Source: an uncultured bacterium (lineage in GTDB: Bacteria > Fidelibacterota > Marinisomatia > Marinisomatales > UBA1611). Taken from it: DNA of 64,000 nt. The translations under genes were made by a program, and so were the position numbers. Location of the stretch: assembly GCA_964646455.1 (NCBI GenBank), contig CAZYDX010000001.1, positions 9,560 to 73,559 on the forward strand. The letters run 5' to 3'. Below, in pieces: positions 2-38,060 of the stretch (position 1 is its first letter; every line of letters starts with the position of its first letter). The notes beneath the pieces were generated by a model. That model was not told the origin of the DNA, ran no database searches, and saw nothing but the letters and a program-made list of their open reading frames with translations.

Positions 2-931
2 ACACCAACATCTGTTTTAAGTGCGACAATAAATAAGTATTGTACTTGTTCTATAATTATTGGTGATGATGATAAAATTTATATTTCCAGTAAGGATTTA
101 AACCTAAAATATACTGCCGATAGATATGATAATATTCAATTTGGGGATGATCTTGATTTAATTAAATCTGCTGTAAAAATTATGCAACCAAATTTTGGTT
201 TTGAGTTGGAAACATATGCTGAATTTTTACCAGGAACAGGCCTGGGTGGTTCATCAGCTATAGTAGTATCTGTCCTAGGTGCATTGAATTATTTTCGTAA
301 TGAACAACAATTAGATATATACCAACTTGCAGACCTTGCTTATCAGGTTGAACGTATAGATATGAAAATTAAAGGAGGATGGCAGGATCAATATGCTACC
401 GCTTTTGGAGGATTTAGTTGGATAAATTTCCGCGAGAATGAAATCATTGTTAATCCATTATTACTACGTAAAGAAACTATTTTAGAATTAGAGTACAACT
501 TGATGCTTTTTCGTCTTGGAGAAACTCGTAGTTCAAGTAATATACAAAAAAAACATATATCTAAATTAGAGAATTCAAGCAATCTGGATTCCTATGCAGA
601 AATGACTGAACTATCAGTTAAAATGAAAGAATCACTATTAAAAGGAGAGACCAAAACCTTTGCTGATTTTCTTCACGAATCATGGATGATAAAGCAGAAA
701 ATAAACTCATCAGTATCAAATGATTTAATTGAAGACTGCTATAATACAGCTCGTGATTTAGGTGCTTTAGGTGGTAAGCTATTAGGCGCTGGAAGTAGTG
801 GATATTTACTTATTTATTCATCACCTTTATATCAAAAGAAAATAATTGAATCATTAGCTGATAAAGGTGTAATGAAAGAAAATTTTAAATTTAGTCAAGA
901 TGGCCTTGAAGTTTGGTCTACAAAAAAATAA
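2..931 (+). CDS. GHMP-family sugar(-phosphate) kinase, HddA/fucokinase-like; 5' end lies upstream of the window
   Basis: The frame of the 182..931 ORF stays open back to nt 2 with no stop. GHMP motif II 'LPGTGLGGSSAIVVSVLGAL'; C-terminal 'GGKLLGAGSSGYLLIY'. Confidence 0.8.
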   Translation, partial: TPTSVLSATINKYCTCSIIIGDDDKIYISSKDLNLKYTADRYDNIQFGDDLDLIKSAVKIMQPNFGFELETYAEFLPGTGLGGSSAIVVSVLGALNYFRNEQQLDIYQLADLAYQVERIDMKIKGGWQDQYATAFGGFSWINFRENEIIVNPLLLRKETILELEYNLMLFRLGETRSSSNIQKKHISKLENSSNLDSYAEMTELSVKMKESLLKGETKTFADFLHESWMIKQKINSSVSNDLIEDCYNTARDLGALGGKLLGAGSSGYLLIYSSPLYQKKIIESLADKGVMKENFKFSQDGLEVWSTKK

Positions 932-7273: not shown

Positions 7274-8059
7274 ATGTTTAAAGATTTAAATAGAGAGGAA
7301 ATCTATAGAAAGGAATATTATGAGTATTGGTATTCTAGAGTGCATGAATCAAATAAGCTAGGCAATAAGTCCTCAATAATTATCGAAGGTGACTTTGTTG
7401 TTCCTTCTGATTCCATATATAGAGAATTTTTTGATAAGTATCTTATTAATAATGGAAAGATTTTAGATATAGGATGCGGTTGGGGTAGGTTTTTTAATTA
7501 TTATAATAATTGTAATATGAAAATATATGGTGTAGATATCTCTAATATTATGGTTAAGAAAGCAAAAGAATTTTTTCCTGAAACAGCCTTAAGAATTAAT
7601 GAAGCAGAAGCTGAAAATCTTCCATTTGAAGATAATTTTTTTGATGTGGTGTGCTGTTTTGGTGTTTTCGATGCTACATTTCAAGATAAAGTTCTAAAAG
7701 AAATGCTTCGTGTTTGTAAACTTGGAGGAAGGGTTATTTTTACTGGTAAAAATAATAGATATCCATTAAATGATAAGATAGCTTATAAAGCTGAGTTAGG
7801 CGCATTAAAAAACAAAGAGCCTAATTACTATACTAATGTAGAAAAAATGATTAACGAATTAATTGAAAATAAACATACTATTTCAAATAAATATTTCTTT
7901 ATAAATAGGGGTGATATGTCGTTTAATAATTACGTTATTGATTTACCAGAACAATTTTATGAATATTGTTTAACAGTAAAGAAATGCTCTACGTCTTATA
8001 AATTCTCAAAATTTTATGATTCAAGATCTGAAAATTTTAAAATAAAAGATTCATTATAA
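7274..8059 (+). CDS. class I SAM-dependent methyltransferase
   Basis: Motif I 'ILDIGCGWGRFF'; 'FDVVCCFGVF'; 'LGGRVIFTG'. Confidence 0.8.
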   Translation: MFKDLNREEIYRKEYYEYWYSRVHESNKLGNKSSIIIEGDFVVPSDSIYREFFDKYLINNGKILDIGCGWGRFFNYYNNCNMKIYGVDISNIMVKKAKEFFPETALRINEAEAENLPFEDNFFDVVCCFGVFDATFQDKVLKEMLRVCKLGGRVIFTGKNNRYPLNDKIAYKAELGALKNKEPNYYTNVEKMINELIENKHTISNKYFFINRGDMSFNNYVIDLPEQFYEYCLTVKKCSTSYKFSKFYDSRSENFKIKDSL

Positions 8060-9081
8060 TGATTGATAATCCAATATTTATTACAGGTTGTTATAGAAGT
8101 GGCACCACATATATAAGCAGAGTCCTTGATGCTCATCCTAATCTTAATGTAACATTTGATTCGGTAAATTATTTTCGTTTTATTATAAAAAAAAATATAC
8201 CTGCAAAAGAATATAAAAAAATTGTTAATAGTATTTCTAAGCGTATGAAATCAAGATATAATATTATCTTAGATCCCAAAAAAATTATAAAAAATATCGA
8301 AAATTCTAATTCTATAAATCATAAACAAATTTATTCTAGTGTAATGAATTGTTTATTTGAATATTCGAAAAATATATGGGGTGAAAAATCTTTGCTAGAA
8401 TGGTCTAATATACCTCTATTTTTATCAATGTTTCCAAATGGTCATGTAATACATATAATTCGAGATCCAAGAGACGTAGTAGCTTCTTATAAAAACATGA
8501 CATATGAAAAGGGAGATAGATATTTAGATGCTATTTTTGCTAGCCTAGGTTCTTTAAATGCATCAATGTATTATAATGATTTGCTTCCAGAAGATCGTTA
8601 TAAAATATTGATTTATGAAGACTTCATCATGAATAAGATTAAATACTGTAGAGATTTATGTAAATACTTAGGTATTGAATTCTTTGATGAAATGCTTGAT
8701 GAAAATAATCATACAGATATTTTTGGAAAAAAATTTAATTCAAAAACACATACGTCATTTCCAGATGATAAATCTAAACCAATAAATAGATGGAAGAAAA
8801 AACTATCCAATAATGAAATTGAATTAGTAGAAAGTATTTTAAGATTACAAATGAACCATTATGGATATAAGCTATCAACTGACTTAAAAAATAATTCAAT
8901 TTCATGGCTATTAAATATTTTAAAAAATAGCAATCTTATTAATGATCACTTTATTAATTATTTAATTTCTGGAGAAGGAATTGAATCTTATCCAAGTGAT
9001 TCTACAGATCCTAAGAATTGGGCTATTGATACAGGAATTACTGGTCAAGGAGCTGCTAAGGCTTATGTAGAAAAAAAATAA
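8059..9081 (+). CDS. PAPS-dependent sulfotransferase
   Basis: 5'-phosphosulfate-binding loop 'GCYRSGTTYISR' and 3'-phosphate-binding block 'IIRDPRDVVASY'. TAATG overlap with the upstream gene. Confidence 0.8.
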   Translation: MIDNPIFITGCYRSGTTYISRVLDAHPNLNVTFDSVNYFRFIIKKNIPAKEYKKIVNSISKRMKSRYNIILDPKKIIKNIENSNSINHKQIYSSVMNCLFEYSKNIWGEKSLLEWSNIPLFLSMFPNGHVIHIIRDPRDVVASYKNMTYEKGDRYLDAIFASLGSLNASMYYNDLLPEDRYKILIYEDFIMNKIKYCRDLCKYLGIEFFDEMLDENNHTDIFGKKFNSKTHTSFPDDKSKPINRWKKKLSNNEIELVESILRLQMNHYGYKLSTDLKNNSISWLLNILKNSNLINDHFINYLISGEGIESYPSDSTDPKNWAIDTGITGQGAAKAYVEKK

Positions 9082-11456: not shown

Positions 11457-11557
11457 TGATTTTAGATTCATCAATTAATTTACTTTAAATAAGAAATTAT
11501 ATTTTATTCTTTATAACTAATAAATATATAAATATTATTATTTGTAGGACTTTATAA

Positions 11558-21362: not shown

Positions 21363-21367
21363 TAAAT

Positions 21368-26482: not shown

Positions 26483-26899
26483 TTGAATAAAGAATTTATT
26501 AAATCAGTTAATTTCCATCACTATGGATTGGCTCTTAAAAGTTTCAGGAGTGCAGTAAAATTCCATAGTAATTTGGGATACATTATTTCTGAAATTATTT
26601 ATGATGATATCCAAAATGTAGAATTAATCCTTTGTACATCTAACAACTTTCCCACAGTTGAACTTGTAAAACCATATGATGACAAGAGTCCAATAAATAA
26701 TTATTTAAAAAAAAATAATGAAATAATTTATCATATTTGTTATGAAGTAGATGATATTGATAATGATTTAAAGTTATTATTTAAAAATAATCGTTCAATA
26801 TGCGTAAGCAAACCAAAGCCTGCTAAATTATTTAATAATCGATTAGTTTCATTCTATTACATAAATGATATCGGATTAATAGAATTACTCCAAAAATGA
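26483..26899 (+). CDS. VOC/glyoxalase-fold protein (methylmalonyl-CoA epimerase-like)
   Basis: 'FHHYGLALKSF' and 'HICYEVDDI' match the paired metal-ligand blocks of VOC enzymes. TTG start at 26483 verified in the sequence. Confidence 0.6.
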   Translation: MNKEFIKSVNFHHYGLALKSFRSAVKFHSNLGYIISEIIYDDIQNVELILCTSNNFPTVELVKPYDDKSPINNYLKKNNEIIYHICYEVDDIDNDLKLLFKNNRSICVSKPKPAKLFNNRLVSFYYINDIGLIELLQK

Positions 26900-28641
26900 T
26901 TAAAGAAGATATAAAGTACAGTGAAATATTAAGGGAGAATAGTGAATTAGCTAAGGTGCTTCCAGATAAAAGTTATGAGATAAAAATATTATCAAATATT
27001 ATTACTTCTCAAGTAAATGAAATTTTAGAATATACATTGAGATTAGAATCAATACCTGCAATAGTAAAATCTGGTAACTATGATAATATAGTTCAAGATA
27101 GTTCTGTTTATAATAATTCAGATTTATGCATAATATTTTGGGAATTATGTAATATTATTAATGGATTTCAGTATAAAATAGAACTCTTAACTAATAGAGA
27201 GTTGGAAGATCTTAAAATAAAGATGAAGACTGAGATTGATCTTGTAATTCGTAATTTACAAAAGGCCTCTCTTGTTATTTTTAATCAGTTTTCATCATTA
27301 GCATTTTCAACAAATAGTATAATTAGCAATAATTATAAAAGTTTTTCAGATGAATTAAATCAATATTTAAAAGATCGAATAACTGATAATATACGTATAG
27401 TAGAAATAGATAATGTATTAGCAAATATTGGTTTGCAAAAATGTTTGGATGAGAGGAATTATTATTCTTCTAAAGCATTATATACAGTTGAATTTTTCAG
27501 ATCCTATACTGAATATGTTAAGCCTTATATAATGTCTGCCAATGGCAAAGCAAAGAAGATTTTAATTTTTGATTGTGATAATACATTATGGAAGGGTGTG
27601 CTTGGTGAAGATGGTATTGATAATATTGAAATGTCATCTGATACAAATAATGGATGTATATTTTCTGAGATTCAGGATATTGCACTGGCTTTAAATAGAC
27701 AAGGTGTACTAATTGGCTTGTGTAGTAAGAATAATATAGATGATATAGACGAAGTTATTGGTTCTCACCCAAATATGAAAATCAAAGATGAAAACATCTC
27801 TATAAAGAAATGTAACTGGTCAGATAAAGTTTCTAATCTCAGAGAGATTGCTGAAGAATTAAATATTGGTTTAGATAGTATTCTTTTTATAGATGATTCG
27901 TCTTTTGAAATAAACTTTGTAAATGAACAATTGCCAGAAATTACTACTTTGCAAGTTCCTGAAAGAATATATAATTATCCAAGATTATTGCGGGAAAATA
28001 TTAGACATTTTTATAATTTATCATCCACTGATGAAGATAGGAAAAAGAATTCAATTTATAGGCAACAATCAAAAAGGAAGAATGATCAAAAGAGATTTTC
28101 AAATATTGAAGATTATCTAGTTTCCTTAAATATAGAAGTAAAAATGTATGAAAATATAGAAACTATAATTCCGCGAGTATCACAGATGAGTCTTAAAACA
28201 AACCAATTCAACCTTACAACAAATAGATATACTGAAAATGATATTAAAAAATTTAATATGGATAAAAGAATCAGAATTTATGCTTTTTCAGTCACTGACA
28301 AGTTTGGTGATAGTGGAATAACAGGATTATCAATAATAAAACTTATAACTGAAACTAAAACGGCAGAAATTGATACTTTTCTTATGAGCTGTAGAATTAT
28401 TGGTAGGAATATAGAATATGCATTCATTAACAATATTATAACGAGAATAAAAAAAGAAAAGTTTAGTTATGTAAAAGCAAATTATATAAAAACAAATAAA
28501 AATGATCAGGTGAAAAATTTCTATGACTCTTGTTCTTTTAAAAACATTGAATCTAATAAACTAAATAAAAAATATATTTTAGATTTAAGCAAATATGAAC
28601 CAAAACTAATAAACTATATCAGGATTGAAAATGCCAAATAA
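26896..28641 (+). CDS. FkbH-like HAD-superfamily (subfamily IIIC) phosphatase/acyl-loading enzyme with a C-terminal GNAT-like region
   Basis: Diagnostic 'KKILIFDCDNTLWKGVLGEDGIDNIEM', 'LIGLCSKNN', 'ILFIDDSSFE'; C-terminal 'LMSCRIIGRNIEYAFIN'. Confidence 0.7.
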   Translation: MIKEDIKYSEILRENSELAKVLPDKSYEIKILSNIITSQVNEILEYTLRLESIPAIVKSGNYDNIVQDSSVYNNSDLCIIFWELCNIINGFQYKIELLTNRELEDLKIKMKTEIDLVIRNLQKASLVIFNQFSSLAFSTNSIISNNYKSFSDELNQYLKDRITDNIRIVEIDNVLANIGLQKCLDERNYYSSKALYTVEFFRSYTEYVKPYIMSANGKAKKILIFDCDNTLWKGVLGEDGIDNIEMSSDTNNGCIFSEIQDIALALNRQGVLIGLCSKNNIDDIDEVIGSHPNMKIKDENISIKKCNWSDKVSNLREIAEELNIGLDSILFIDDSSFEINFVNEQLPEITTLQVPERIYNYPRLLRENIRHFYNLSSTDEDRKKNSIYRQQSKRKNDQKRFSNIEDYLVSLNIEVKMYENIETIIPRVSQMSLKTNQFNLTTNRYTENDIKKFNMDKRIRIYAFSVTDKFGDSGITGLSIIKLITETKTAEIDTFLMSCRIIGRNIEYAFINNIITRIKKEKFSYVKANYIKTNKNDQVKNFYDSCSFKNIESNKLNKKYILDLSKYEPKLINYIRIENAK

Positions 28642-28876
28642 TTTAGAAAATAGTTTGAAAGAAATAATGTCTGCAGTATTTACAGTAGATAAAAATGAAT
28701 TAGATCATAATTCTTCGCCTGAAGATATTTCATCATGGGATTCACTTAAACATCTTAATCTTGTTGCTGCGATAGAGACTGAGTTAAATATAGATTTATC
28801 TGATGATGAGATTGTATGTTTGACGGATTTTCACAATATTCTTTTAATTATAGAAAAAAAATATAAAGATAAGTAA
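28625..28876 (+). CDS. acyl/peptidyl carrier protein
   Basis: About 80 aa with the phosphopantetheine-attachment motif 'SSWDSLKHLNLVAAIE' (DSL). TTG at 28625, with ATG 28631 as an alternative start. It overlaps the end of the FkbH-like gene. Confidence 0.7.
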   Translation: MKMPNNLENSLKEIMSAVFTVDKNELDHNSSPEDISSWDSLKHLNLVAAIETELNIDLSDDEIVCLTDFHNILLIIEKKYKDK

Positions 28877-28977: not shown

Positions 28978-30513
28978 GTGAATGATCCTTTATTAAAATC
29001 TGAGTATTTATATAATTTAAAAAGAACATCTACTATAAAATTTTCAGATATATCTAAACCGAATATGGTATGTTTGATAGTTGCAAATGGAGGACCAACA
29101 AAACTGCTACAAAGTTATTTGGATGGACATCCACAATTATACAATATACCTTGTTATCCAATGATATATTATTACCCACATTGGGAAACATGGGAAATAA
29201 ATGAATCTTCAAATTGGACTTGGGAAAAAATTATTGATTTATTTTGCAATAAACACTCATCTCTTTTGGATTCGCGAAATATAGGAGGTTTAAATGGTTT
29301 AGATCGGTTAGGTGATAATAAAAACGAACATATAGAGATCAGTGAAAAATTATTCCGCTTTTATTTAAAAGAAATGTTAAAAGAAGAGCCAATTAAAAGA
29401 CGGACCTTTCTTTTAGCGGTATATTATGTTTATGCCATATGTAAGGGACAAGATTTATCTAATAAAACTACATTATTATGGCCGCATCATGTTTATGAAT
29501 ATCTAGATATTTACTTTTCTGACTTTCCTGACTCTATATTAATTGGTTCAATTCGAGATTCTAGACCCAAAATTTATCGTAACTATGAATTGAACACTAA
29601 AACTGATCAATATAAGCTAAATCCTACTGATCAAATGATATATCGTTCGCACATTTATTATCATGTAGTAAAAAATATGTTTTATTCCCATCACAAACTG
29701 AAAAATTATGTTAATCCATCTAGAGCTTATTTCCTTAAGCATGAAGAATTAGCGATGGACCAAAAGAAAACTATGCAGAACTTTTGCAGAATTATTCATA
29801 TTGATTTCTTGAATCTTTTATTAGATAGCACATTTGATGGAAAGTTATGGTGGGGGCATAGAATTTATGATATGCCCATTTCTAATGAAAACATGAAACC
29901 TAAAGAAAGAGTCAACTTGATTTCGAAAATGGCATTGGAAAGAGTATTATTAACAGATTGGAATCAATATTCCTCATTAGAAATATTTGTAATTGAAGGA
30001 ATTGCTTATGATTTTTTCACTAAGTATAATTACGATTTATTATATTATAAAAAAGATACATTTATTTACCGCTTTATATTATTCTTAATAATTTTATTAC
30101 CACAAAGTTTTGAATTAAGAGATTTTATATACTATTGGTCACCTATAAATCATAAAAATTTCCTTGTGTTAGCTTTTAAAGAATGTAGAGGGATTATACC
30201 TTTAAAAGATTATTCAAAAAATGCATCCTATATTTATAAACGTAATTATAAAGACTTCAAATTGTGGGAAAAGAGTTATTCATACCGTCTTTTTGAAAAA
30301 ACAAAGAATTTTAATTATGGAAGTAAATATTGGTTCATAATTGCAACGATCCAGAATTTTGGTGCAGTAATATATATATTAGGAAAATATTTTCATTTTT
30401 TAATATCAGCTTTTTTATTACCGGTCCAATATTGCAAACGTGTTTTATTGCATTTCTCAGGTTTATGGAAGAGATTATTTAACAAAACCTTTTGGGTTCA
30501 AGAATTAACTTAA
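28978..30513 (+). CDS. membrane-anchored protein with a divergent sulfotransferase-like N-terminal domain
   Basis: 'LIVANGGPTKLL' and 'IGSIRDSRPKIYRNY' loosely fit the PAPS 5'-PSB and 3'-PB blocks. The C-terminal third is hydrophobic ('FIYRFILFLIILLP', 'WFIIATIQNFGAVIYILGKYFHFLISAFLLP'). GTG start. Confidence 0.35.
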   Translation: MNDPLLKSEYLYNLKRTSTIKFSDISKPNMVCLIVANGGPTKLLQSYLDGHPQLYNIPCYPMIYYYPHWETWEINESSNWTWEKIIDLFCNKHSSLLDSRNIGGLNGLDRLGDNKNEHIEISEKLFRFYLKEMLKEEPIKRRTFLLAVYYVYAICKGQDLSNKTTLLWPHHVYEYLDIYFSDFPDSILIGSIRDSRPKIYRNYELNTKTDQYKLNPTDQMIYRSHIYYHVVKNMFYSHHKLKNYVNPSRAYFLKHEELAMDQKKTMQNFCRIIHIDFLNLLLDSTFDGKLWWGHRIYDMPISNENMKPKERVNLISKMALERVLLTDWNQYSSLEIFVIEGIAYDFFTKYNYDLLYYKKDTFIYRFILFLIILLPQSFELRDFIYYWSPINHKNFLVLAFKECRGIIPLKDYSKNASYIYKRNYKDFKLWEKSYSYRLFEKTKNFNYGSKYWFIIATIQNFGAVIYILGKYFHFLISAFLLPVQYCKRVLLHFSGLWKRLFNKTFWVQELT

Positions 30514-30573: not shown

Positions 30574-32745
30574 ATGAAAAATATTAAAATTCTATCTACT
30601 CTAGGACCAAGTTCTTTGGATAAAAAAGTAATTCGACGATTAACTGAATTAGGAGTTGATATGTTTCGTTTAAATTTATCTCATATAACCATAGATCAAC
30701 TTGAAAGTAATATTAATATTATTAGAGATTATAGTAATGTTCCCATTTGTTTGGATACGGAAGGTGCTCAGGTGAGAACTGGAGTTGTAAAGGGTGGGAA
30801 AATATTTGTTAAAGAAGGAGAAATAATAGAACTCATTTCATATGAATTATCTGATAATAAAAACTTATTTTATTTTACACCACTTCATATTATGGATAGG
30901 TTAAGTTTAGGCGATTTAATTAGTATCGATTATGATTCATGCTTGATTCAGGTTATAGATAAAACTAGTTCAGGTATAAAAGTAATGGTGCTAAGTGAAG
31001 GAGAAATTCATAGTAATAAAGCAGTATCTATTCTTCAAAAAAATCCTGAGCTTGAACCTCTTACCGCAAAAGATCTTGAAGCAATTATGATTGGTAAAAA
31101 ATTAAAAATTAATAATGTCGCTTTATCATTTGCTAATAGTGGTAAAGATGTAAAACTGTTGCGGGAGTTGTGTTCTAAAGATTGTTCGATTATTTCTAAA
31201 ATTGAGACTACAAAAGCTATAGATAATTTGAATGAAATAATTCGATTGTCTGATGCCATTTTAATTGATCGTGGAGATTTATCAAAAGAAGAATTGATAG
31301 AAGAAATACCATTTTTACAAAAATTTATAATTAATAAAGCAAATGAAATGAATAAAGAAGTTTATGTCGCCACAAATTTATTGGAATCAATGATAAGACA
31401 TAAAAGCCCTACTCGTGCTGAGGTTAACGATGTAATAAACACGTTAATTGATGGTGCAGATGGATTAGTTTTAGCTGCAGAAACAGCAATTGGTGATTAT
31501 CCAATTGAAAGCGTAGGGTATATCAAAAATCTAATAAGTACATACAATATGAAGATGCATAATGAAGGTAATGTCTATAATAATATAGAAAGTACATTTA
31601 TCAATTTTCCTCATGGAGGAAAATTGATACAGCAGATCAAAATTCGAGATAAATTAGAATATGAGCATGAACTTCTAGTAGATGAACAAACATTATTAGA
31701 TGTTGAACAAATTGCAAATGGTGGTTATTCTCCTCTAACTGGCTTTATGGATGAAAAGAATCTGAAAAGTGTCTTAAATGAATATTATCTAACAAGCGGG
31801 GAAGTTTGGACAATGCCAGTAATTTTACAGGTTTGTAAGGGACAAATAAACAATTTTGTTATGGGAGATAGAATTGCATTATTATCTAAATATGATAATA
31901 AAATTTATGGAATATTGGAATTATCTGATGTTTATAAAATAAACTCAAAGGAAATATCATTAAAATTATTTAATACTAATGATGCTAAGCATCCAGGTGT
32001 AAATAATCTAAAGAATAAAGGAAATTATTGTTTGGGTGGTACTATTGAGTCTGTTCGAAAATTAAAAAATCCATATAAAAGATTCATTTTTACTCCAGAA
32101 GAAACACGTTTTATCTTTGATAAAAGAGGCTGGAAAAAAATTATTGGATTTCATACTCGCAATGTTATCCATAAAGCACATGAATATATACAGATTAAGG
32201 CTTTGTCAGAATCATTTGCTGATGGTTTATTTATCCATCCGCTTATAGGACCGAAGAAAAAATTAGATTTTTCTTCAAATATTATATTAAAAAGTTACCA
32301 AATGATGATCGATAATTATTACCCAAAAGGGAAAATTCTTTTGGGTGGTTTTCCATCATATCCAAGGTATGCAGCTGCACGTGAGGCTGTTTTTACTGCA
32401 ATTTGTAGACAAAACTATGGCTGTAGTCATTTTATTATTGGAAGAGATCATTCAGGTGTTGGAAAATATAGTAAGTCAACAGAGGCAAAAGATCTATTTG
32501 AATTTTTGAAAAGTGGTTTAAATATTGAACCTATTTACTTTGATAAAGTATCTTATTGTAAAAAATGTAAGGACTATGTTGAAGATTGCAACCATACTAA
32601 ACATGATTTTAAATCAATTAGCGCTAGTTATGTTCGTAAGGTTTTTCAAGATGGAGAGATGCCTGAAGGTTGGCTTATAAGAGAAGAAATTAGCGAAATG
32701 ATTAATGCATCAATCAAAAACAAGGAAGATGTATTTTACAAATAA
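30574..32745 (+). CDS. fusion protein: pyruvate-kinase A/B domains (no PK_C domain) + Sat-type ATP sulfurylase
   Basis: PK blocks: 'ILSTLGPSS', 'MFRLNLSH', 'CLDTEGAQVRTG', 'SKIET', 'IDRGDLSKE', 'TNLLESMIRHKSPTRAEVNDVINTLIDGADGLVLAAETAIGDYP'. ATPS blocks: 'PHGGKLI', 'GGYSPLTGFM', 'WTMPVIL', 'GFHTRNVIHKAHEYI', 'IHPLIGPKKKLDF', 'GCSHFIIGRDHSGVG'. It is a single uninterrupted ORF. Confidence 0.85.
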   Translation: MKNIKILSTLGPSSLDKKVIRRLTELGVDMFRLNLSHITIDQLESNINIIRDYSNVPICLDTEGAQVRTGVVKGGKIFVKEGEIIELISYELSDNKNLFYFTPLHIMDRLSLGDLISIDYDSCLIQVIDKTSSGIKVMVLSEGEIHSNKAVSILQKNPELEPLTAKDLEAIMIGKKLKINNVALSFANSGKDVKLLRELCSKDCSIISKIETTKAIDNLNEIIRLSDAILIDRGDLSKEELIEEIPFLQKFIINKANEMNKEVYVATNLLESMIRHKSPTRAEVNDVINTLIDGADGLVLAAETAIGDYPIESVGYIKNLISTYNMKMHNEGNVYNNIESTFINFPHGGKLIQQIKIRDKLEYEHELLVDEQTLLDVEQIANGGYSPLTGFMDEKNLKSVLNEYYLTSGEVWTMPVILQVCKGQINNFVMGDRIALLSKYDNKIYGILELSDVYKINSKEISLKLFNTNDAKHPGVNNLKNKGNYCLGGTIESVRKLKNPYKRFIFTPEETRFIFDKRGWKKIIGFHTRNVIHKAHEYIQIKALSESFADGLFIHPLIGPKKKLDFSSNIILKSYQMMIDNYYPKGKILLGGFPSYPRYAAAREAVFTAICRQNYGCSHFIIGRDHSGVGKYSKSTEAKDLFEFLKSGLNIEPIYFDKVSYCKKCKDYVEDCNHTKHDFKSISASYVRKVFQDGEMPEGWLIREEISEMINASIKNKEDVFYK

Positions 32746-32867: not shown

Positions 32868-34121
32868 ATGTCTACTGATATAAAAATATTTTTAATAAAA
32901 TTTTCAAAAATTCCTATATATCTAATTATTATACCATTTATAATCATTGTTCGAATTATACGTCCGTTAATATTTATTAGGTTTGGTAAAATACATTCTT
33001 ATATAATTGGGCATTTTATTGCAGATACTGAATATTATCTAAATGAGAAAAAACTGCAAAAAATAAAGTCAATTGATTTTTTCTATTATTACTTTAAATA
33101 CACTTCATTTAAAAATCCTCCAAATGAACAATGGGATCTGATGGTGCGACGAAAATTATTTATTAATCCCTTGATTAAATTATTTCATAAAGTTAATGAT
33201 TTTATTCCTGGTGGTGATTTGCATAAGATAAATATGCCTCTTCAAAAAACTAAATTCAACAATTTAAAACTTGTAAGAAACAGAATCCTCAATGATGCTA
33301 TTATTGATAAAGATGATTTGATACACATAAATTTTACTAATGAAGAAATTCAAAGAGGAGAAAATTTTTTAAAAGACATAGGTGTTAAATCTGAAGATAA
33401 ATTTGTTTGTTTGCTTGTTAGAGATTCTGCTTATAAAGACAAATTCCAAAATTGGAGAAAAAATTGGGCATACCATAATTACAGAGATTCAGATATTGAA
33501 GACTATAAACTTATGGTATCATCATTGGTTAAAAAAGGCTATAGGGTATTTAGAATGGGTAAAGTTGTAAATAATCCACTAGATGTTTCGCACCCATTCT
33601 TTATTGATTATGCTAATTCAGATTTTCGATCTGATTTTCTTGATATTTGGTTAATGGCTAATTGTTATTTCTGCGTAACTACTGGTTGCGGAATAGATAC
33701 TCTTTGTAGAAATTTTATGAGACCTATGGTTTTAGTAAATTTTTTGCCAATTAATACTATTCCTAACCTTCCTCCCTTAATTCTATCCCCAAAAACATTA
33801 TTATGGGAAAGTACGGGTGAAAGATTATGTCTATCGGAGTCTATTAGACACTCTTATATCCGTACTGAACTATATAAAGATGCAGGAATATTAATAAAAA
33901 ATCTTTCATCAGTTGAAATAAATGAAACAGTTTTAGAGATGGAATCAAAATTATTAGGTAATTGGAAGAAGTCTAAGTTAGACAATCAATTAAATATTCG
34001 GGCTTTAGAATTGTTATATAAAAATATTACATATCGAAAAATACGTTCTTCAATTCATTATCTAGATTCTAGTATTAGTGATACATTCTTACGTCATAAT
34101 CATGAATGGTTTTTAAAATGA
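32868..34121 (+). CDS. N-terminally anchored putative glycosyltransferase (resembles the family I recall as TIGR04372)
   Basis: N-terminal TM 'IPIYLIIIPFIIIVRIIRPLIFIRFGKIHSYIIGHF'; 'FVCLLVRDSAYKD...HNYRDSDIEDYKLMVSSLVKKGYRVFRMG'. The family assignment is from memory only. Confidence 0.4.
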   Translation: MSTDIKIFLIKFSKIPIYLIIIPFIIIVRIIRPLIFIRFGKIHSYIIGHFIADTEYYLNEKKLQKIKSIDFFYYYFKYTSFKNPPNEQWDLMVRRKLFINPLIKLFHKVNDFIPGGDLHKINMPLQKTKFNNLKLVRNRILNDAIIDKDDLIHINFTNEEIQRGENFLKDIGVKSEDKFVCLLVRDSAYKDKFQNWRKNWAYHNYRDSDIEDYKLMVSSLVKKGYRVFRMGKVVNNPLDVSHPFFIDYANSDFRSDFLDIWLMANCYFCVTTGCGIDTLCRNFMRPMVLVNFLPINTIPNLPPLILSPKTLLWESTGERLCLSESIRHSYIRTELYKDAGILIKNLSSVEINETVLEMESKLLGNWKKSKLDNQLNIRALELLYKNITYRKIRSSIHYLDSSISDTFLRHNHEWFLK

Positions 34122-35887
34122 ATAAAGTATTAAAAGTTTTTAATACTCTTATACGTCAATTTCCAAAACATTTTATTATATTGTTTTTTCTTATTGTTTT
34201 ACAAACTAGTTTAAGTGTACTGAGTGTTTTATCGGTTGCACCAATAGCTGATTTCTTTTTAGGTAATTCAGGAGAAAATGCAAATATAATTACTCGTTAT
34301 TTTGAGAGTGTTTTTGGTTATTTAGATCTTGAATTACATTTAATGTATCTATTTATCTTTTTCGGTGGCATTACTTTAATAAATGGCCTTTTTAATTTGA
34401 TTGTTCATTATTCGATACTGAGAGTTAAATATGATGTATTAAATAACATGTTAACAAGTTCTATCGGAGAGTTTTTTCAATCTCGATTATTATTTTTCAC
34501 TCAAGGTGATATGGGATTATTATTAAATACTTTTCAGCGTGAGGTTGCTAAAATTGGGGATACATTCGGTGGCATTACAAGATTTTTCGCTAATATATTT
34601 CATACATTAATTCTATTAAGTATACCTATTTATTTTTCCCCAATGCTTACAGGGTTATTCTTGATCCTTTCCTTTATCATTTCTAGTCCACTGATATTTT
34701 TAAATCGATATATTTATTCTCTAGGTAAAAAAAATACAGAAACAGCAAATATAACTTCTGGAATTTTACATGAAACGATGACAGCAGCTAAGCTAATTCT
34801 TAGTTCTGGAAGGCAGCATGCAGCTGTAAAGAGGTATTCGGATTCTATAATTAAACACTCTACAGTTAGTGTCAAATTTCAATCTATTCTCCATGCCGCT
34901 GGGATATTATATCAACCCTTGGGTATTATTGTAGTTCTTATTTTGGTTTATGTTGCGTTTATAGAAGGATTGCAGTTGAGTGAACTATCTTTGATCCTTT
35001 TTTCTATTTATAGGCTTATACCTAATATGGCAGCATTATTTAAAAGTACAGCTACAATTGGTGGTTTTGCTCCAGCCTTTGAGCAACTAGAAAAATTGCG
35101 CATTGATGCGGAAAAATTTAAAGAATATTCGGGTGGAGCAGAATTTATATCACTAAATAAATCTATTCGTTTTCAAGATGTGTCATTTAATTATCCTGGG
35201 CGAAAGATGGCGTTAAATCAAATTGATCTAAATTTTAAAAAGAATCACATGACAGCTTTGGTAGGAAAATCTGGAGCTGGTAAAACAACAGTCGTTGATT
35301 TAATTTTGGGATTATATGAAAATACTAATGGTTCTTTATTATTAGATGGAAGTGACATCAATCAGTATAATATAAATTCATTTCGTAAAAAGATTGGTTA
35401 TGTACCTCAAGATCCACAACTTTTTGATGCATCAGTAAGAGAAAATTTATTATGGTCTAATCCTTATGCAACTGAGAAAGATATGTGGGAGGCATGTAAA
35501 TTAGCCAATGCTAAAGACTTTGTTTCTGATCTTCCCGGTATGTTAGACACTACTCTAGGAGACAGGGGTATAAGAATTTCTGGTGGTCAGCGACAAAGGC
35601 TTGCATTAGCAAGGGCGATTATTCGCAAACCAGATATACTCATTCTTGATGAAGCTACAAGTGCTCTTGATACAGAATCTGAGAGATTAATTCACGATTC
35701 TATAGTTTACTTAAAAAATAAAATGACAATTATAATTATTGCACATCGTTTATCCACAATAAAAAATGCAAACTATATTTATGTCTTAAATGAAGGAAGT
35801 GTAGTTCAAGAAGGTTCTTTTTCAAAATTAGCAGATCAAGAAGGGCATTTTTCTAATATGATCAAATTGCAATTAATGAATAATTAG
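34106..35887 (+). CDS. ABC exporter, fused permease + ATPase (MsbA/PglK-like)
   Basis: N-terminal 6-TM-type domain; Walker A 'GKSGAGKTT'; signature 'ISGGQRQRLALARA'; Walker B 'ILILDEATSALD'; H-loop 'IIAHRLSTI'. ATG 34118 (ATGA overlap) is an alternative start. Confidence 0.9.
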   Translation: MVFKMNKVLKVFNTLIRQFPKHFIILFFLIVLQTSLSVLSVLSVAPIADFFLGNSGENANIITRYFESVFGYLDLELHLMYLFIFFGGITLINGLFNLIVHYSILRVKYDVLNNMLTSSIGEFFQSRLLFFTQGDMGLLLNTFQREVAKIGDTFGGITRFFANIFHTLILLSIPIYFSPMLTGLFLILSFIISSPLIFLNRYIYSLGKKNTETANITSGILHETMTAAKLILSSGRQHAAVKRYSDSIIKHSTVSVKFQSILHAAGILYQPLGIIVVLILVYVAFIEGLQLSELSLILFSIYRLIPNMAALFKSTATIGGFAPAFEQLEKLRIDAEKFKEYSGGAEFISLNKSIRFQDVSFNYPGRKMALNQIDLNFKKNHMTALVGKSGAGKTTVVDLILGLYENTNGSLLLDGSDINQYNINSFRKKIGYVPQDPQLFDASVRENLLWSNPYATEKDMWEACKLANAKDFVSDLPGMLDTTLGDRGIRISGGQRQRLALARAIIRKPDILILDEATSALDTESERLIHDSIVYLKNKMTIIIIAHRLSTIKNANYIYVLNEGSVVQEGSFSKLADQEGHFSNMIKLQLMNN

Positions 35888-35907: not shown

Positions 35908-37410
35908 ATGAGAAAAAAAATATTCTTAAACAAAAGTTTCTATTTTATTCTGTTAATTATCATTACAGTATTATTTACTATGCTGAAATCTATACAGTTG
36001 AAAATGCATAATACTATACCTGAAGCGATTGCTCGTCAAAGAATGCTAATTGGTATTGCAATATCAGATTTGAATTATGGTTTAAAAGGCTATATTGGTT
36101 ATGATATAATAAATGATACATTAATTAAGAATGGTATAACAAATAGAACAGAAGCATTTTATAATAAAGATGTTCTAAATAAAGCAATAAATAAAACACT
36201 AGATCTTGATGTTTCATCTAATAGTAAATACCCTATTTATAGGGAAGATAAAGGGATGGTGGTTTATTACAAAATGGCATTTTTACTATTTGGATATAAT
36301 GTTCAAGGATTTTTATACTTATATTATTTATTATTTCTTGTTTCTGTTCTTATTTTCATATTTACTTTTTATAATAGAATTGATTTGCTCAATATTCTGC
36401 TATTATTTGTATTAAGTCATTATTTTTTAGTATCAATAATTCCATATGCTGGCATTGAGCTGCAAACTGTTCATAATCAACGTTTCTTAGCAGTCCTAGG
36501 CTTGCTTCCTAGTATATACCTATCATTTATAATTTTTTGGAAATATAGATTAAGTGCTTTTGTAAAACTTGGCACCTTAATTCAAATTCTAATTTTGATA
36601 TTTGTTTATTTTTGTAGATCTAGCATAATATATCAAATATTATTCTTACTAATATTGTTTGTTATTGGTGTTCTACGGCATTGGTTTAAAAATCCGGAAT
36701 TAGGAAAGCTTATATTTATTAAAATTAATATATTTCCAATATTCATGATTTGTATAACCCTATTTTTATTACAATTACATTTAATTCTTTCTTTACATCA
36801 TTCATATGATTCAACTACATCAAAACATCTATTTTGGCATGATGTTTATAAGGGTTTGAGTGTTCATCCTAAAAGTAAGATTAAACATAATATTTATGGT
36901 TATAAAGATGATTCTGTCCAACAGTTTGTTGATGATTATGCAAAAAAACATCTAGACAGAGAAAGTGTGAACTCCGAAGATGAGTCAAAATTATATGAAG
37001 CAATCGTTAAAAACAAAGTTGTAGAAATTATTAAAAATGATCCATTTTATATATTTTCCACCTTTTTTTATTATAAGATAAACAGTTTTTTTCATTATTT
37101 CACTACTACATTATTTAAAACTATTAACAATTATTCTTTCTGGATTATACTATTATTGATTACATCAACAAGTACATTAATTAATAAAGTATTTATGAAT
37201 AAATGGTTTGATTATTTTAAGGTTGTTACTTTTGCAATGCCATTTTCCTTATTGCCAGCTTTAATTGCATTTCCGCATCCAAGCGTATATTCTGATACTA
37301 TTTTAATGTTTACTTTTTATGTTTATTTGATTTTATCTGGTATTATTTGTTATTTATCTAATAAATATTCTATACTAAAAGTATTAAGTAAATCTTATAA
37401 AAATAATTAG
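35908..37410 (+). CDS. polytopic integral membrane protein; candidate GT-C-type glycosyltransferase or polymerase
   Basis: TM1 is followed by a ~90-aa loop ending in the acidic 'YREDKGM' just before TM2. Many further TM helices follow, plus a ~90-aa soluble loop (aa ~300-390). No named motif. Confidence 0.5.
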   Translation: MRKKIFLNKSFYFILLIIITVLFTMLKSIQLKMHNTIPEAIARQRMLIGIAISDLNYGLKGYIGYDIINDTLIKNGITNRTEAFYNKDVLNKAINKTLDLDVSSNSKYPIYREDKGMVVYYKMAFLLFGYNVQGFLYLYYLLFLVSVLIFIFTFYNRIDLLNILLLFVLSHYFLVSIIPYAGIELQTVHNQRFLAVLGLLPSIYLSFIIFWKYRLSAFVKLGTLIQILILIFVYFCRSSIIYQILFLLILFVIGVLRHWFKNPELGKLIFIKINIFPIFMICITLFLLQLHLILSLHHSYDSTTSKHLFWHDVYKGLSVHPKSKIKHNIYGYKDDSVQQFVDDYAKKHLDRESVNSEDESKLYEAIVKNKVVEIIKNDPFYIFSTFFYYKINSFFHYFTTTLFKTINNYSFWIILLLITSTSTLINKVFMNKWFDYFKVVTFAMPFSLLPALIAFPHPSVYSDTILMFTFYVYLILSGIICYLSNKYSILKVLSKSYKNN

Positions 37411-37421
37411 CGAGGCAATTA

Positions 37422-38060
37422 ATGATTAAATCTAACATAAATAAATATTTTAGTTCTATTTTTCATAGATATAATGAATCAAATGAATTGAATAATCTAA
37501 GAGACAAACCAATCGAACATAAAATTAAATATTATAATTCTCTAAGCTATGAAGTTATAATGAAAAAAAAGGAGAATAAATTTTATTTATATATGCCAGA
37601 ACTTTCTATTGTTACCATTAATACTAATTTGGATAAGGCTTTTATAGAATTAGAGAAAAAAAGAGAAAAATATTTTACTACTCTTTTATCCTACGATTCT
37701 GATCATGAAATTAGACTTCCAAATAAAATAAAGAATAAATTTGAAATATATCAGAAAATGAAATTGTTTATTTACAAACTAATCATTATATGCTTTTTAG
37801 GTGGAATAACATTTTCATTAAGTATTGCATTAATAAGTAATAAAATTGCAGAAATCCCAGATAGATTTGACGATATTTCTATTGTAGATAATATGTGGAA
37901 ATCAGTTGGAAAAGTTAAAGAAATAATTGAAGCCCCTGAAGAAATTCAAAAAGAAAGACTTGAAACATTTCATGAACTTTTGCTAATGTTAAAACCATTT
38001 GTGCAGGAATTAGAAATATTGTTTGATAAACAAGAGTCAAATAAAAATTCAGATAAATAG
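37422..38060 (+). CDS. hypothetical single-pass membrane protein
   Basis: 212 aa with a central TM 'LFIYKLIIICFLGGITFSLSIALI'. The N-terminal 'YEVIMKKKENKFYLYMPELSIVTINTNLDKAFIELEKK' has a HicB/UPF0150-like pattern. Confidence 0.4.
   Translation: MIKSNINKYFSSIFHRYNESNELNNLRDKPIEHKIKYYNSLSYEVIMKKKENKFYLYMPELSIVTINTNLDKAFIELEKKREKYFTTLLSYDSDHEIRLPNKIKNKFEIYQKMKLFIYKLIIICFLGGITFSLSIALISNKIAEIPDRFDDISIVDNMWKSVGKVKEIIEAPEEIQKERLETFHELLLMLKPFVQELEILFDKQESNKNSDK

What the first reader, a model, noticed from the sequence alone, without database searches (positions are those of the whole stretch)
30574..32745. Pyruvate kinase fused to ATP sulfurylase, with sulfotransferases nearby but no APS kinase
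This is a single uninterrupted 723-aa ORF. Residues ~1-330 keep the pyruvate-kinase A/B-domain catalytic landmarks ('CLDTEGAQVRTG', 'SKIET', 'IDRGDLSKE', 'ESMIRHKSPTRAEVNDV...AAETAIGDYP'). The C-terminal allosteric PK domain is replaced by a complete Sat-type ATP sulfurylase ('PHGGKLI', 'GGYSPLTGFM', 'GFHTRNVIHKAHEYI', 'GCSHFIIGRDHSGVG'). The window has one clear sulfotransferase (8059..9081) and one sulfotransferase-like membrane protein directly upstream (28978..30513). PAPS-dependent sulfotransferases need APS kinase, and I recognise no CysC-type domain anywhere in the 64 kb. I see three hypotheses. (i) PEP-driven ATP regeneration or coupling pulls the thermodynamically unfavourable sulfate adenylylation for glycan sulfation. 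(ii) The PK-like domain performs the second phosphorylation or acts on another acceptor. (iii) The ATPS-like domain adenylylates a non-sulfate anion. The third idea is by analogy with the Campylobacter O-methyl-phosphoramidate pathway, where PAPS-pathway homologues were recruited for a different activated donor. I am not aware of a characterised PK-ATPS fusion.
Basis: partly seen in the sequence, partly recalled or inferred. Interest (0 to 1): 0.75.

Follow-up and report, generated by a model that had tools for sequence, protein, structure and literature searches.

The report
Pyruvate kinase fused to ATP sulfurylase
This gene really does join a working-looking pyruvate kinase to a sulfate-activating enzyme; the same uncharacterised combination occurs in many bacterial phyla inside sugar-coat gene clusters, where it most likely makes activated sulfate while recycling its own ATP.

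Summary
Window 30574..32745 (+) is one uninterrupted 723-aa ORF: pyruvate-kinase A/B barrel (aa 2-314, no C-domain), a disordered linker (330-342), then a complete Sat-type ATP sulfurylase (346-711). The identical protein is on 12 independently assembled contigs.

It is not a one-off. The 80 best GTDB loci, from more than 10 phyla, are all full-length fusions. Triple fusions with APS kinase occur in both orders, and one genome has a split form with adjacent PK-only and ATPS genes.

Both active sites are invariant in 120 homologues. They also carry fixed family signatures: PK 'DTEGAQ(I/V)R' instead of 'DTKGPEIR', and ATPS 'HTRN' instead of the universal sulfate-binding 'QTRN'.

Of 54 loci with full flanks, 32 have an APS kinase (26 abutting the fusion) and at least 31 a sulfotransferase. 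So PK does not generally replace APS kinase.

Best reading: a PAPS-supply module for glycan sulfation, in which PK uses PEP to turn the ADP made by APS kinase back into ATP.

This contig has no APS kinase in about 92 kb examined, like a third of relatives; that is unresolved. No paper on the fusion was found. Verdict: new variant of a known kind, interest 0.6.

The parts
30574..32745 (+). Whole 723-aa PK-ATPS fusion ORF (stop codon included)
30574..31560 (+). Pyruvate-kinase module, aa 1-329: A-domain TIM barrel plus B-domain lid, no C-terminal allosteric domain
   Evidence: Pfam PK 2-314, E 6.9e-70. Best PDB sequence match 2e28, E 7e-49. Foldseek aligns about 344 columns at rmsd 2.5-2.8 A on PKM2 and rabbit PK. 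Catalytic residues are invariant in 120 homologues.
30754..30777 (+). PK family signature D61-T-E63-G-A-Q66-V-R68, where ordinary PKs have DTKGPEIR (monovalent-cation site region)
   Evidence: E63 in 118/120 and Q66 in 120/120 homologues. Aligned to 'ldtkgpeirt' of 2e28. Also present in the stand-alone PK of the split locus L099 as DSEGAQIR.
31561..31599 (+). Inter-module linker, aa 330-342
   Evidence: The only segment of the AlphaFold model with pLDDT below 50.
31609..32058 (+). PUA_2 N-terminal domain of ATP sulfurylase, aa 346-495
   Evidence: Pfam PF14306, E 1.6e-37.
32083..32706 (+). ATP-sulfurylase catalytic domain, aa 504-711 (HTRN, HKAH, GPKKKLD, GRDHSG, Cys/His cluster)
   Evidence: Pfam PF01747, E 7.7e-70. 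Best PDB sequence match 8a8d, E 2.3e-86. Foldseek TM 0.91 (8a8d) and 0.93 (1v47). Invariant residues.
32152..32154 (+). Codon of His527, replacing the sulfate-binding Gln of the universal QTRN motif
   Evidence: His in 120/120 homologues. Among 50%-identity representatives, PK-fused proteins are His 60 / Gln 1 and unfused ones Gln 51 / His 22. The Gln hydrogen-bonds the sulfate oxygens of APS (PMC3779200).
28978..30513 (+). 511-aa sulfotransferase-like protein with two C-terminal hydrophobic segments, directly upstream; probable user of the activated sulfate
   Evidence: Sulfotransfer_3, E 9.9e-5, below cut-off. Homologues lie next to fusions in L067 (1e-77), L026, L033, L039, L043 and L025. 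Hydrophobic segments at 362-384 and 463-483.
8059..9081 (+). 340-aa PAPS-type sulfotransferase
   Evidence: Sulfotransfer_1 and Sulfotransfer_3 in the precomputed annotation. The motifs YRSGTTY and RDPRDVVAS are in the translation.
32868..34121 (+). 417-aa TIGR04372-family glycosyltransferase, directly downstream; recurs near fusions
   Evidence: NCBIfam E 1.1e-56. Homologues in L013, L067 and L044.
34106..35887 (+). 593-aa HepA/MsbA/PglK-like ABC exporter; recurs near fusions
   Evidence: NCBIfam. The same cluster occurs in 15-16 of the loci analysed.

Best explanation
The ORF encodes a two-enzyme protein of a widespread, uncharacterised family: a C-domain-less but catalytically intact pyruvate kinase, tethered by a flexible linker to a Sat-type ATP sulfurylase that has His in place of the sulfate-binding Gln. 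It is the sulfate-activation module of a glycan-sulfation pathway. The ATPS half makes APS from ATP and sulfate. An APS kinase makes PAPS and ADP; it is adjacent or fused in most relatives, is not on this contig and is presumed to lie elsewhere in this genome. The PK half uses PEP to convert that ADP back to ATP. This keeps ADP low, which avoids the dead-end APS-kinase/ADP/APS complex, pulls the kinase step and through it the unfavourable adenylylation, and halves the net ATP cost. PAPS is then used by the sulfotransferase at 8059..9081, and probably by the sulfotransferase-like protein at 28978..30513, to sulfate a capsule or O-antigen-type glycan. Shown here: the architecture, active-site conservation, gene partnerships and distribution. 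Inferred: every catalytic activity, the direction of coupling and the sulfated product.
For: 1. Architecture and fold.
2. All PK phosphotransfer, metal and nucleotide residues (R32, N34, S36, H37, D61, R68, K149, K209, E211, D235, T267, E303) and all ATPS residues (T528, R529, N530, H533, H536, R624, H626) are invariant or nearly so in 120 homologues at 44-56% identity. The PK half is therefore under selection as an enzyme.
3. Gene-fusion evidence: APS kinase is fused N-terminally in P0116 and C-terminally in P0139 and P0150. It abuts the fusion gene in 26 of 54 loci and lies within 10 kb in 32 of 54. A sulfotransferase is present in at least 31 of 54, and only 4 of 54 have neither.
4. A split form exists (L099): a PK-only gene carrying the same signature lies directly upstream of a His-type ATPS gene. 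The partnership is therefore functional and not an accident of fusion.
5. The recurring context is glycan and nonulosonic-acid biosynthesis.
6. Kinetic rationale from the literature: without a PK/PEP system PAPS formation by PAPSS1 is 'practically missing', because ADP and APS trap APS kinase in a dead-end complex (PMC9885120; see also PMC3734648).
7. Dedicated PAPS-synthesis genes plus sulfotransferases inside a polysaccharide cluster are described as the hallmark of sulfated capsule synthesis (PMC11641403 and PMC11766843).
Against: No APS kinase was found in about 92 kb of this contig, and 18 of 54 relatives with a sulfotransferase also lack one within 10 kb. In those cases the source of ADP for the PK is not visible. 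PK is fused to ATPS, which produces no ADP, rather than to the ADP-producing kinase. A housekeeping PK would do the same job, so the selective advantage of tethering is only assumed. The family-specific changes (PK K-to-E and E-to-Q near the cation site; ATPS Gln-to-His at the sulfate ligand) are not explained by simple ATP recycling. No activity has been measured.
Confidence: 0.55

Rival explanations
1. PK feeds ATP directly to the tethered ATP sulfurylase, as local energy buffering or channelling, independently of any APS kinase. This would keep sulfate activation running when the cellular ATP/ADP ratio is low and remove ADP as a competitor at the ATPS nucleotide site.
For: The fusion partner is ATPS rather than the kinase in nearly all members. 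A third of loci have no APS kinase nearby. Many carriers are energy-limited or streamlined lineages such as Omnitrophota, Elusimicrobia, Pelagibacterales and the SAR406-like source of this window.
Against: The ATPS equilibrium does not depend on ADP, so PK cannot pull that step thermodynamically. The repeated independent fusions and abutting genes with APS kinase point to the kinase step. The flexible linker gives no sign of a channel.
Confidence: 0.12
2. The PK module is mainly regulatory or structural. It might act as a PEP/ADP sensor that ties glycan sulfation to carbon or energy status, or as an oligomerisation scaffold that replaces the C-domain contacts, with little net catalytic flux.
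For: The allosteric C-domain is lost and its place is taken by the ATPS. The cation-site region differs from that of all characterised PKs. In fungi an APS-kinase-like domain fused to ATPS serves as an allosteric module (PMC3779200), which is a precedent.
Against: Every catalytic, metal-binding and nucleotide-binding residue is invariant across phyla, which is unusual for a sensor or scaffold. The split form keeps a complete PK gene.
Confidence: 0.12
3. The PK-like module is a PEP-dependent kinase that performs the second step itself (APS to PAPS). This would make APS kinase dispensable in loci like this one.
For: No APS kinase in about 92 kb here. 18 of 54 relatives pair a sulfotransferase with the fusion but have no APS kinase within 10 kb. 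A distinct Sulfotransfer_3 clade directly upstream of the fusion is enriched in those loci (12 of 13, p = 3e-4). The window's sulfotransferase keeps the 3'-phosphate-binding motif, so PAPS is needed from somewhere.
Against: APS kinase is adjacent or fused in most relatives. No alignment column distinguishes fusions with an adjacent APS kinase from those without. The PK active site is built to phosphorylate a terminal phosphate, not a ribose 3'-OH (established PK enzymology). APS kinase may simply be encoded elsewhere.
Confidence: 0.07
4. The His-type ATPS activates an anion other than sulfate, and the pathway makes a different activated donor.
For: The Gln that hydrogen-bonds the sulfate of APS is His in 120/120 homologues and in 60 of 61 fused representatives, while unfused ATPS mostly keep Gln. 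Whole-protein scores fall just under the NCBIfam cut-offs for sulfate adenylyltransferase (381.6 against 387; 316.9 against 322.95).
Against: The partners are standard APS kinases and Sulfotransfer_1/3 proteins. A sulfatase sits in some loci. All other APS- and PPi-binding residues are canonical. His can also hydrogen-bond sulfate.
Confidence: 0.06
5. Two ordinary genes were joined by a sequencing, assembly or gene-calling error.
For: None found.
Against: The identical ORF is on 12 contigs from independent assemblies. The 80 best GTDB loci are all full-length fusions at 42-49% identity.
Confidence: 0.01

Closest known systems
Bifunctional PAPS synthases (ATP sulfurylase fused to APS kinase: metazoan PAPSS1/2, Aquifex aeolicus Sat-CysC, fungal ATPS with a kinase-like domain)
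   Same: The Sat-type ATPS is fused to a second enzyme of the same pathway. Some family members (P0116, P0139, P0150) carry the APS-kinase domain as well.
   Different: The constant partner here is a pyruvate kinase, which is not a pathway enzyme. The window protein has no kinase domain. The Gln of QTRN is His.
CysDN / NodPQ, the GTPase-coupled ATP sulfurylase, including the extra cysDN-cysC copies found inside sulfated-capsule clusters of marine Vibrio and Cobetia (PMC11641403, PMC11766843)
   Same: A dedicated sulfate-activation module sits inside a polysaccharide cluster with sulfotransferases. An energy-rich co-substrate (GTP there, presumably PEP here) helps overcome unfavourable sulfate activation.
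   Different: The folds are unrelated: CysD is a PP-loop ATP pyrophosphatase and CysN a GTPase. There the coupling is conformational within one reaction; here it is presumably mass action on ADP through the kinase step.
In-vitro PAPS-generating cascades that add pyruvate kinase and PEP (PMC9885120)
   Same: The same enzyme set with the same logic: PK removes ADP, prevents the dead-end APS-kinase complex and regenerates ATP.
   Different: That is a man-made mixture of separate enzymes. Here the PK is genetically tethered, lacks its allosteric domain and has an altered cation-site motif.
Methanothermococcus thermolithotrophicus ATP sulfurylase (PDB 8A8D) and Thermus thermophilus ATPS (1V47)
   Same: These are the closest solved structures to the ATPS half (E 2.3e-86; TM 0.91 and 0.93), including a C-terminal Cys/His cluster pattern.
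   Different: They are stand-alone proteins with the QTRN motif and no PK.
Bacterial pyruvate kinases (Geobacillus stearothermophilus 2E28, E. coli PykF)
   Same: A/B domains and all catalytic residues.
   Different: No C-terminal effector and tetramerisation domain. The motif is DTEGAQ(I/V)R, not DTKGPEIR. The score is below the TIGR01064 equivalog cut-off (285.3 against 306.4).
Campylobacter O-methyl-phosphoramidate pathway
   Same: Only the general idea that PAPS-pathway-like enzymes can be recruited for another activated donor (from general knowledge, not tested here).
   Different: To my knowledge that pathway involves no ATPS homologue and no PK homologue. The partners here are standard APS kinases and sulfotransferases.

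Membership tests
Pyruvate kinase (PF00224 / TIGR01064) | A-domain TIM barrel with inserted B-domain lid | tested here: met
   Pfam PK 2-314 of a 328-position profile, E 6.9e-70. Foldseek aligns about 344 columns at rmsd 2.5-2.8 A on PKM2 and rabbit PK.
Pyruvate kinase (PF00224 / TIGR01064) | Catalytic Arg/Lys/Thr, Mg ligands Glu and Asp, and nucleotide-binding Arg/Lys/His | tested here: met
   R32, H37, R68, K149, K209, E211, D235, T267 and E303 align to the PK motifs in 2e28 and are invariant or nearly so in 120 homologues.
Pyruvate kinase (PF00224 / TIGR01064) | Canonical cation-site motif DTKGPEIR (Glu or Lys at the K+-dependence switch position) | tested here: not met
   The motif is DTEGAQVR here, with E63 in 118/120 and Q66 in 120/120 homologues.
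Pyruvate kinase (PF00224 / TIGR01064) | C-terminal alpha/beta effector domain (PK_C), and full-length equivalog score | tested here: not met
   No PK_C hit. TIGR01064 score 285.3 bits against a cut-off of 306.4.
Pyruvate kinase (PF00224 / TIGR01064) | PEP + ADP to pyruvate + ATP activity | not testable with these tools
   Needs an enzyme assay.
Sat-type ATP sulfurylase (PF14306 + PF01747 / TIGR00339) | PUA-like N-domain plus catalytic nucleotidyl-transferase domain | tested here: met
   PDB 8a8d E 2.3e-86. TM 0.91-0.93.
Sat-type ATP sulfurylase (PF14306 + PF01747 / TIGR00339) | HxxH, RN(P) loop, GxxKxxD and GRDHAG motifs | tested here: met
   H533-K-A-H536, R529-N530, G559..K562..D565 and G623-R-D-H-S-G628 are present, and invariant or nearly so in the family.
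Sat-type ATP sulfurylase (PF14306 + PF01747 / TIGR00339) | Gln of QTRN as sulfate ligand | tested here: not met
   His527 in 120/120 homologues. Role of the Gln from PMC3779200.
Sat-type ATP sulfurylase (PF14306 + PF01747 / TIGR00339) | Score above the NCBIfam cut-offs | tested here: not met
   NF003166: 381.6 against 387. TIGR00339: 316.9 against 322.95. Both fall just short.
Bifunctional PAPS synthase (ATPS + APS kinase) | APS-kinase domain (PF01583) in the same polypeptide | tested here: not met
   Absent from the window protein, although present in relatives P0116, P0139 and P0150.
Sulfated-polysaccharide gene cluster (PAPS genes + sulfotransferases inside a glycan cluster) | Sulfotransferase(s) and ATP sulfurylase within a polysaccharide locus | tested here: met
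   The criterion is as stated in PMC11641403.
Sulfated-polysaccharide gene cluster (PAPS genes + sulfotransferases inside a glycan cluster) | APS kinase in the cluster | tested here: not met
   None found in about 92 kb of the contig.
Sulfated-polysaccharide gene cluster (PAPS genes + sulfotransferases inside a glycan cluster) | Sulfate esters on the glycan | not testable with these tools
   Needs chemical analysis.
PAPS-dependent sulfotransferase (ORF 8059..9081) | 5'-phosphosulfate loop and 3'-phosphate motif (R...S) | tested here: met
   Sulfotransfer_1 and Sulfotransfer_3. 'YRSGTTY' and 'RDPRDVVAS' read from the translation. The assignment of motif roles is from general knowledge.
PAPS-dependent sulfotransferase (ORF 28978..30513) | Family-level match and PAPS motifs | tested here: inconclusive
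   Sulfotransfer_3 at 23.1 bits, below the 27-bit cut-off. 'IRDSRPKIY' only partly fits the 3'-phosphate motif. Homologues bridge to genuine sulfotransferases.

The most novel reading that the evidence does not exclude
The PK-like module does chemistry beyond ADP recycling. In the roughly one third of loci (this one included) with sulfotransferases but no APS kinase, it would use PEP to make PAPS or another activated sulfate donor without CysC. The co-evolved His-type ATPS and the altered PK cation site would be adaptations to that new coupled reaction.
Probability: 0.1. Interest if true: 0.85.

Novelty: new variant of a known kind. Interest (0 to 1): 0.6.

Why it matters
If the best reading is right, many bacterial phyla have hard-wired the arrangement that biochemists use to make PAPS synthesis work in vitro: ATP sulfurylase plus APS kinase plus PK/PEP.

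This would define a third kind of bacterial sulfate-activation module, beside CysDN and plain Sat-CysC. It would also give a simple genomic marker for glycan sulfation in uncultured lineages such as Omnitrophota, Nitrospinota, Pelagibacterales and SAR406-like bacteria.

It would offer a compact enzyme for cofactor supply in enzymatic or microbial production of sulfated polysaccharides, where PAPS supply is a limiting factor.

The fixed Gln-to-His change at the sulfate ligand and the altered PK cation site are clear targets for mechanistic work. Cultured carriers (Mesorhizobium, Sinorhizobium/Ensifer, Methyloversatilis) make genetics possible.

Tried and rejected
- **Hidden APS kinase in the window.** The 212-aa ORF 37422..38060 and the other unannotated ORFs were checked with tblastn, an APS-kinase HMM, a Walker-A scan, Pfam and NCBIfam. 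None is an APS kinase.
- **AAA_33 P-loop kinase as a replacement for APS kinase.** Rejected, because it occurs in the APS-kinase-positive rhizobial loci.
- **Sequence difference between fusions with and without an adjacent APS kinase.** No discriminating column was found.
- **Reaching the contig end by exact DNA scans of metagenome contigs.** Two scans found nothing. The end was reached instead through a protein look-up, which leaves about 3 kb unseen.
- **Annotated rhizobial plasmid context.** The record has no feature table.
- **Look-up of ORF 182..931.** Not on record.
- **Unfused His-type ATPS P0148.** It lies on a 1.2-kb contig with its frame open to the edge, so it is probably a truncated fusion and is uninformative.
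- **Promoter and terminator scan around the gene.** Promoter-like sites did not exceed the shuffles, and no intergenic terminator was found on the + strand.
- **Literature.** Five full-text searches for a natural PK-ATPS fusion found nothing relevant.
- **Taxonomy.** Cluster look-ups returned no names. Only Wzi relatives gave a tentative SAR406/Marinimicrobia assignment.
Full report
**1. Observation**

Window 30574..32745 (+) is a single ATG-initiated ORF of 723 codons with no internal stop. Pfam places a pyruvate-kinase barrel at aa 2-314 (E 6.9e-70), a PUA_2 domain at 346-495 (1.6e-37) and an ATP-sulfurylase domain at 504-711 (7.7e-70). There is no PK_C domain, and NCBIfam agrees.

The identical protein is called on 12 contigs from JGI, Logan, ENA and NCBI assemblies. 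The join is therefore not a sequencing or assembly artefact.

An AlphaFold model built on 27 family members has mean pLDDT 87 and pTM 0.75. Its only disordered stretch is aa 330-342, so the protein is two folded modules joined by a flexible linker.

Foldseek superposes the C-terminal half on the Methanothermococcus (8A8D, TM 0.91) and Thermus (1V47, TM 0.93) ATP sulfurylases. It superposes the N-terminal half on about 344 columns of PK A+B domains at rmsd 2.5-2.8 A. No solved chain covers both halves.

**2. Surroundings**

The window lies in a glycan island that fills essentially the whole 95-kb contig. The island holds two Wza-type exporters, Wzz, Wzy, Wzi, WecG, an initiating transferase, several NeuB / CMP-sugar synthetase sets, many DegT aminotransferases, epimerases and methyltransferases, all on one strand.

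Directly around the fusion the order is:
- FkbH-domain protein (26896..28641) with an acyl-carrier protein (28625..28876);
- a 511-aa sulfotransferase-like protein with two hydrophobic segments (28978..30513);
- the fusion;
- a TIGR04372-family glycosyltransferase (32868..34121);
- a HepA/MsbA/PglK-like ABC exporter (34106..35887);
- a polytopic membrane protein (35908..37410).

A clear PAPS-type sulfotransferase lies at 8059..9081.

No APS kinase is present. tblastn and hmmsearch with three, and later 45, APS-kinase sequences give nothing better than E = 0.01 in the window or in the additional contig sequence. That weakest hit is the Walker A of the ABC transporter. PF01583 appears nowhere in the precomputed annotation of about 92 kb.

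Named relatives of the Wzi protein at the contig end are all Marinimicrobia (labelled Neomarinimicrobiota, Fidelibacterota or Marinimicrobia) at 42-46% identity. Together with 24-34% G+C, this tentatively points to a SAR406-like marine bacterium.

**3. The fusion is a family, not a curiosity**

All 120 best database clusters (44-56% identity, about 725 aa) have the same three Pfam domains. Their sources name them either 'sulfate adenylyltransferase' or 'pyruvate kinase'.

The 80 best are all full-length fusions at 42-49% identity. They come from Omnitrophota, Planctomycetota, 'Deltaproteobacteria', Elusimicrobia, Nitrospinota, Bdellovibrionota, Chloroflexota, Actinomycetota, Verrucomicrobiota, Gemmatimonadota, Campylobacterota and Alpha-, Beta- and Gammaproteobacteria.

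Cultured carriers include Mesorhizobium, Sinorhizobium/Ensifer and Methyloversatilis, and a Pelagibacterales MAG also carries it. Not all 508 stretches were verified as fused.

**4. Both halves look like live enzymes, with family-specific active-site changes**

In a 120-sequence alignment, the PK residues that align with the catalytic, metal-binding and nucleotide-binding residues of solved PKs are invariant or nearly so. These are R32, N34, S36, H37, D61, R68, K149, K209, E211, D235, T267 and E303. The same holds for ATPS residues T528, R529, N530, H533, H536, R624 and H626.

Two deviations are equally fixed.
- The PK motif 'DTKGPEIR' reads 'DTEGAQ(I/V)R', with E63 in 118/120 and Q66 in 120/120. 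This is the region that governs monovalent-cation dependence in PKs (general knowledge).
- The universal ATPS motif 'QTRN' reads 'HTRN', with His527 in 120/120. That Gln hydrogen-bonds the sulfate oxygens of APS (PMC3779200).

A search of 50%-identity representatives with the ATPS half shows how tightly His tracks the PK partner. PK-fused proteins are His in 60 cases and Gln in 1. Unfused ATPS are Gln in 51 cases and His in 22. At least one of the unfused His-type entries is a truncated fusion.

**5. Partners**

- In an Omnitrophota genome the order is sulfotransferase, fusion, then an APS kinase that overlaps the fusion's stop codon.
- In P0116 the APS kinase is fused N-terminally and a sulfotransferase follows.
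- In P0139 and P0150 the APS kinase is fused C-terminally.
- Among 54 GTDB loci with at least 5 kb on both sides, 32 have an APS kinase (26 within 300 bp) and at least 31 a sulfotransferase. Four have neither. Eighteen resemble the window, with a sulfotransferase but no kinase within 10 kb. The sulfotransferase count comes from a home-made HMM and is a lower bound.
- Other recurrent neighbours are NeuB, CMP-sugar cytidylyltransferases, DegT enzymes, epimerases, the ABC exporter, Wzy-like proteins and, in some loci, a sulfatase.
- Locus L067 (a Rhodospirillales chromosome) repeats the window's module of 511-like protein, TIGR04372-like glycosyltransferase, ABC exporter and fusion, again with no kinase nearby.
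- Locus L099 holds a split form. A 353-aa PK-only gene with the signature DSEGAQIR is 44% identical to the window's PK half (E 1e-91). It is followed by 112 bp with stops in all frames, then a 394-aa His-type ATPS gene.
- Locus L098 has an unfused His-type ATPS beside a sulfotransferase and beside a full fusion.

**6. Mechanism**

These facts identify the family as the sulfate-activation module of glycan-sulfation pathways. I give about 0.85 to that general statement.

For the PK half, the best-supported role is PEP-driven conversion of the ADP released by APS kinase back to ATP. This is exactly what has to be added in vitro. Without PK/PEP, PAPS formation by PAPSS1 is 'practically missing', because ADP and APS lock the kinase in a dead-end complex (PMC9885120; PMC3734648). 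Removing ADP also pulls the kinase step, and with it the very unfavourable adenylylation, and it halves the net ATP cost.

This is inference: no activity was measured. Three points weaken it. PK is tethered to ATPS, not to the kinase. A third of loci, this one included, show no kinase nearby. The two signature substitutions remain unexplained. I put this specific mechanism at 0.55.

**7. Rivals**

- Direct ATP supply to ATPS, independent of the kinase (0.12).
- A regulatory or scaffold role for the PK module (0.12). The complete conservation of catalytic residues argues against it.
- PK as a PEP-dependent APS kinase (0.07). The adjacent and fused genuine kinases argue against it. So does the lack of any sequence difference between the with-kinase and without-kinase classes.
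- A non-sulfate anion (0.06). The His substitution and the just-sub-threshold NCBIfam scores favour it. The standard APS-kinase, sulfotransferase and sulfatase partners argue against it.
- Artefact (0.01 or less).

**8. Comparison with what is known**

The closest systems are:
- bifunctional PAPS synthases, which share the ATPS but have a different constant partner;
- CysDN/NodPQ modules, including the extra cysDN-cysC copies inside the sulfated-capsule clusters of marine Vibrio and Cobetia. They play the same role in the cluster, with an unrelated fold and GTP coupling (PMC11641403 and PMC11766843);
- man-made PK/PEP-assisted PAPS cascades.

As a PK, the N-terminal half meets the fold and catalytic-residue criteria. 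It fails the C-domain, cation-motif and equivalog-score criteria. As a Sat, the C-terminal half meets everything except the Gln ligand and, narrowly, the curated cut-offs.

Five full-text searches found no description of the natural fusion. The searchable library misses most subscription journals, so this is absence of evidence only.

**9. Verdict**

The thing is real, widespread, apparently uncharacterised, and best filed as a new variant of a known kind: a PAPS-synthesis module with a built-in pyruvate kinase. Interest is 0.6.

The most novel reading not excluded is PEP-dependent chemistry that dispenses with APS kinase in loci like this one. It has a probability of about 0.1.

Noticed in passing
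window 31599-31629: A perfect 14-bp inverted repeat with a 3-nt loop (TATCAATTTTCCTC / GAGGAAAATTGATA). As RNA it folds at -16.6 kcal/mol with z = -5.5. It is the only such repeat in the ORF and lies exactly at the linker/ATPS boundary (codons 343-352, INFPHGGKLI). In 62 relatives the equivalent 51-nt window tends to be more stable than the rest of the ORF (median rank 0.26; 11 of 62 in the top 5%). The GC-rich PHGG codons could explain this.
   Followed up: partly
window 26896-28876: An FkbH-domain protein (NCBIfam E 7.5e-80) with an overlapping 83-aa acyl-carrier protein lies just upstream of the sulfation genes. This suggests a glyceryl- or glycolyl-type acyl modification of the glycan from a glycolytic intermediate.
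   Followed up: partly
whole window and contig (L012, L008, L095): About 92 kb of uninterrupted, co-directional glycan genes, bracketed by Wza-type exporters at both ends. It holds at least four NeuB-type synthases and six CMP-sugar (CTP_transf_3) synthetases, which points to several nonulosonic-acid pathways in one island.
   Followed up: no
window 18923-22282: A 537-aa protein combining a HAD-like N-terminus with an APH-type kinase domain, followed by a split transketolase-like pair (DXP_synthase_N/Transketolase_N and Transket_pyr/Transketolase_C). This is an unusual set for a glycan cluster.
   Followed up: no
window 8001-12000, 36001-38000, 56001-60000: Patches of markedly lower G+C (0.24-0.25, against about 0.30 elsewhere). 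They coincide with the sulfotransferase/Wzy region and with membrane-protein genes, which may indicate a mosaic origin of the island.
   Followed up: no
L099 4827-7185 (GCA_015231265.1): A split version of the system. A 353-aa PK-only gene with the family signature DSEGAQIR is followed by a 112-bp gap containing a GC-rich hairpin, then a His-type ATP sulfurylase gene.
   Followed up: yes
L098 5016-9488: One contig carries a sulfotransferase, an unfused His-type ATPS (405 aa) and, on the opposite strand, a full 724-aa PK-ATPS fusion. That is two His-type ATPS copies side by side.
   Followed up: partly
L050, L060, L064, L068, L070, L072, L073, L083, L084, L087 (rhizobia): In Mesorhizobium and Sinorhizobium/Ensifer the fusion, partly on megaplasmids, is followed by an APS kinase and a Na_H_Exchanger-family transporter. 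It is accompanied by an AAA_33 P-loop kinase, a Wzy-like protein and a large cadherin/RTX/metallophosphatase protein. No sulfotransferase was detected by my HMM.
   Followed up: partly
L052, L062, L066, L076, L081, L082, L085, L092 and others: A distinct Sulfotransfer_3 clade (about 343 aa) sits directly upstream of the fusion, almost only in loci that lack an APS kinase (12 of 13, p = 3e-4), together with a Wzy-like 472-aa protein (7 of 7). Whether these sulfotransferases still bind the 3'-phosphate of PAPS was not examined.
   Followed up: partly
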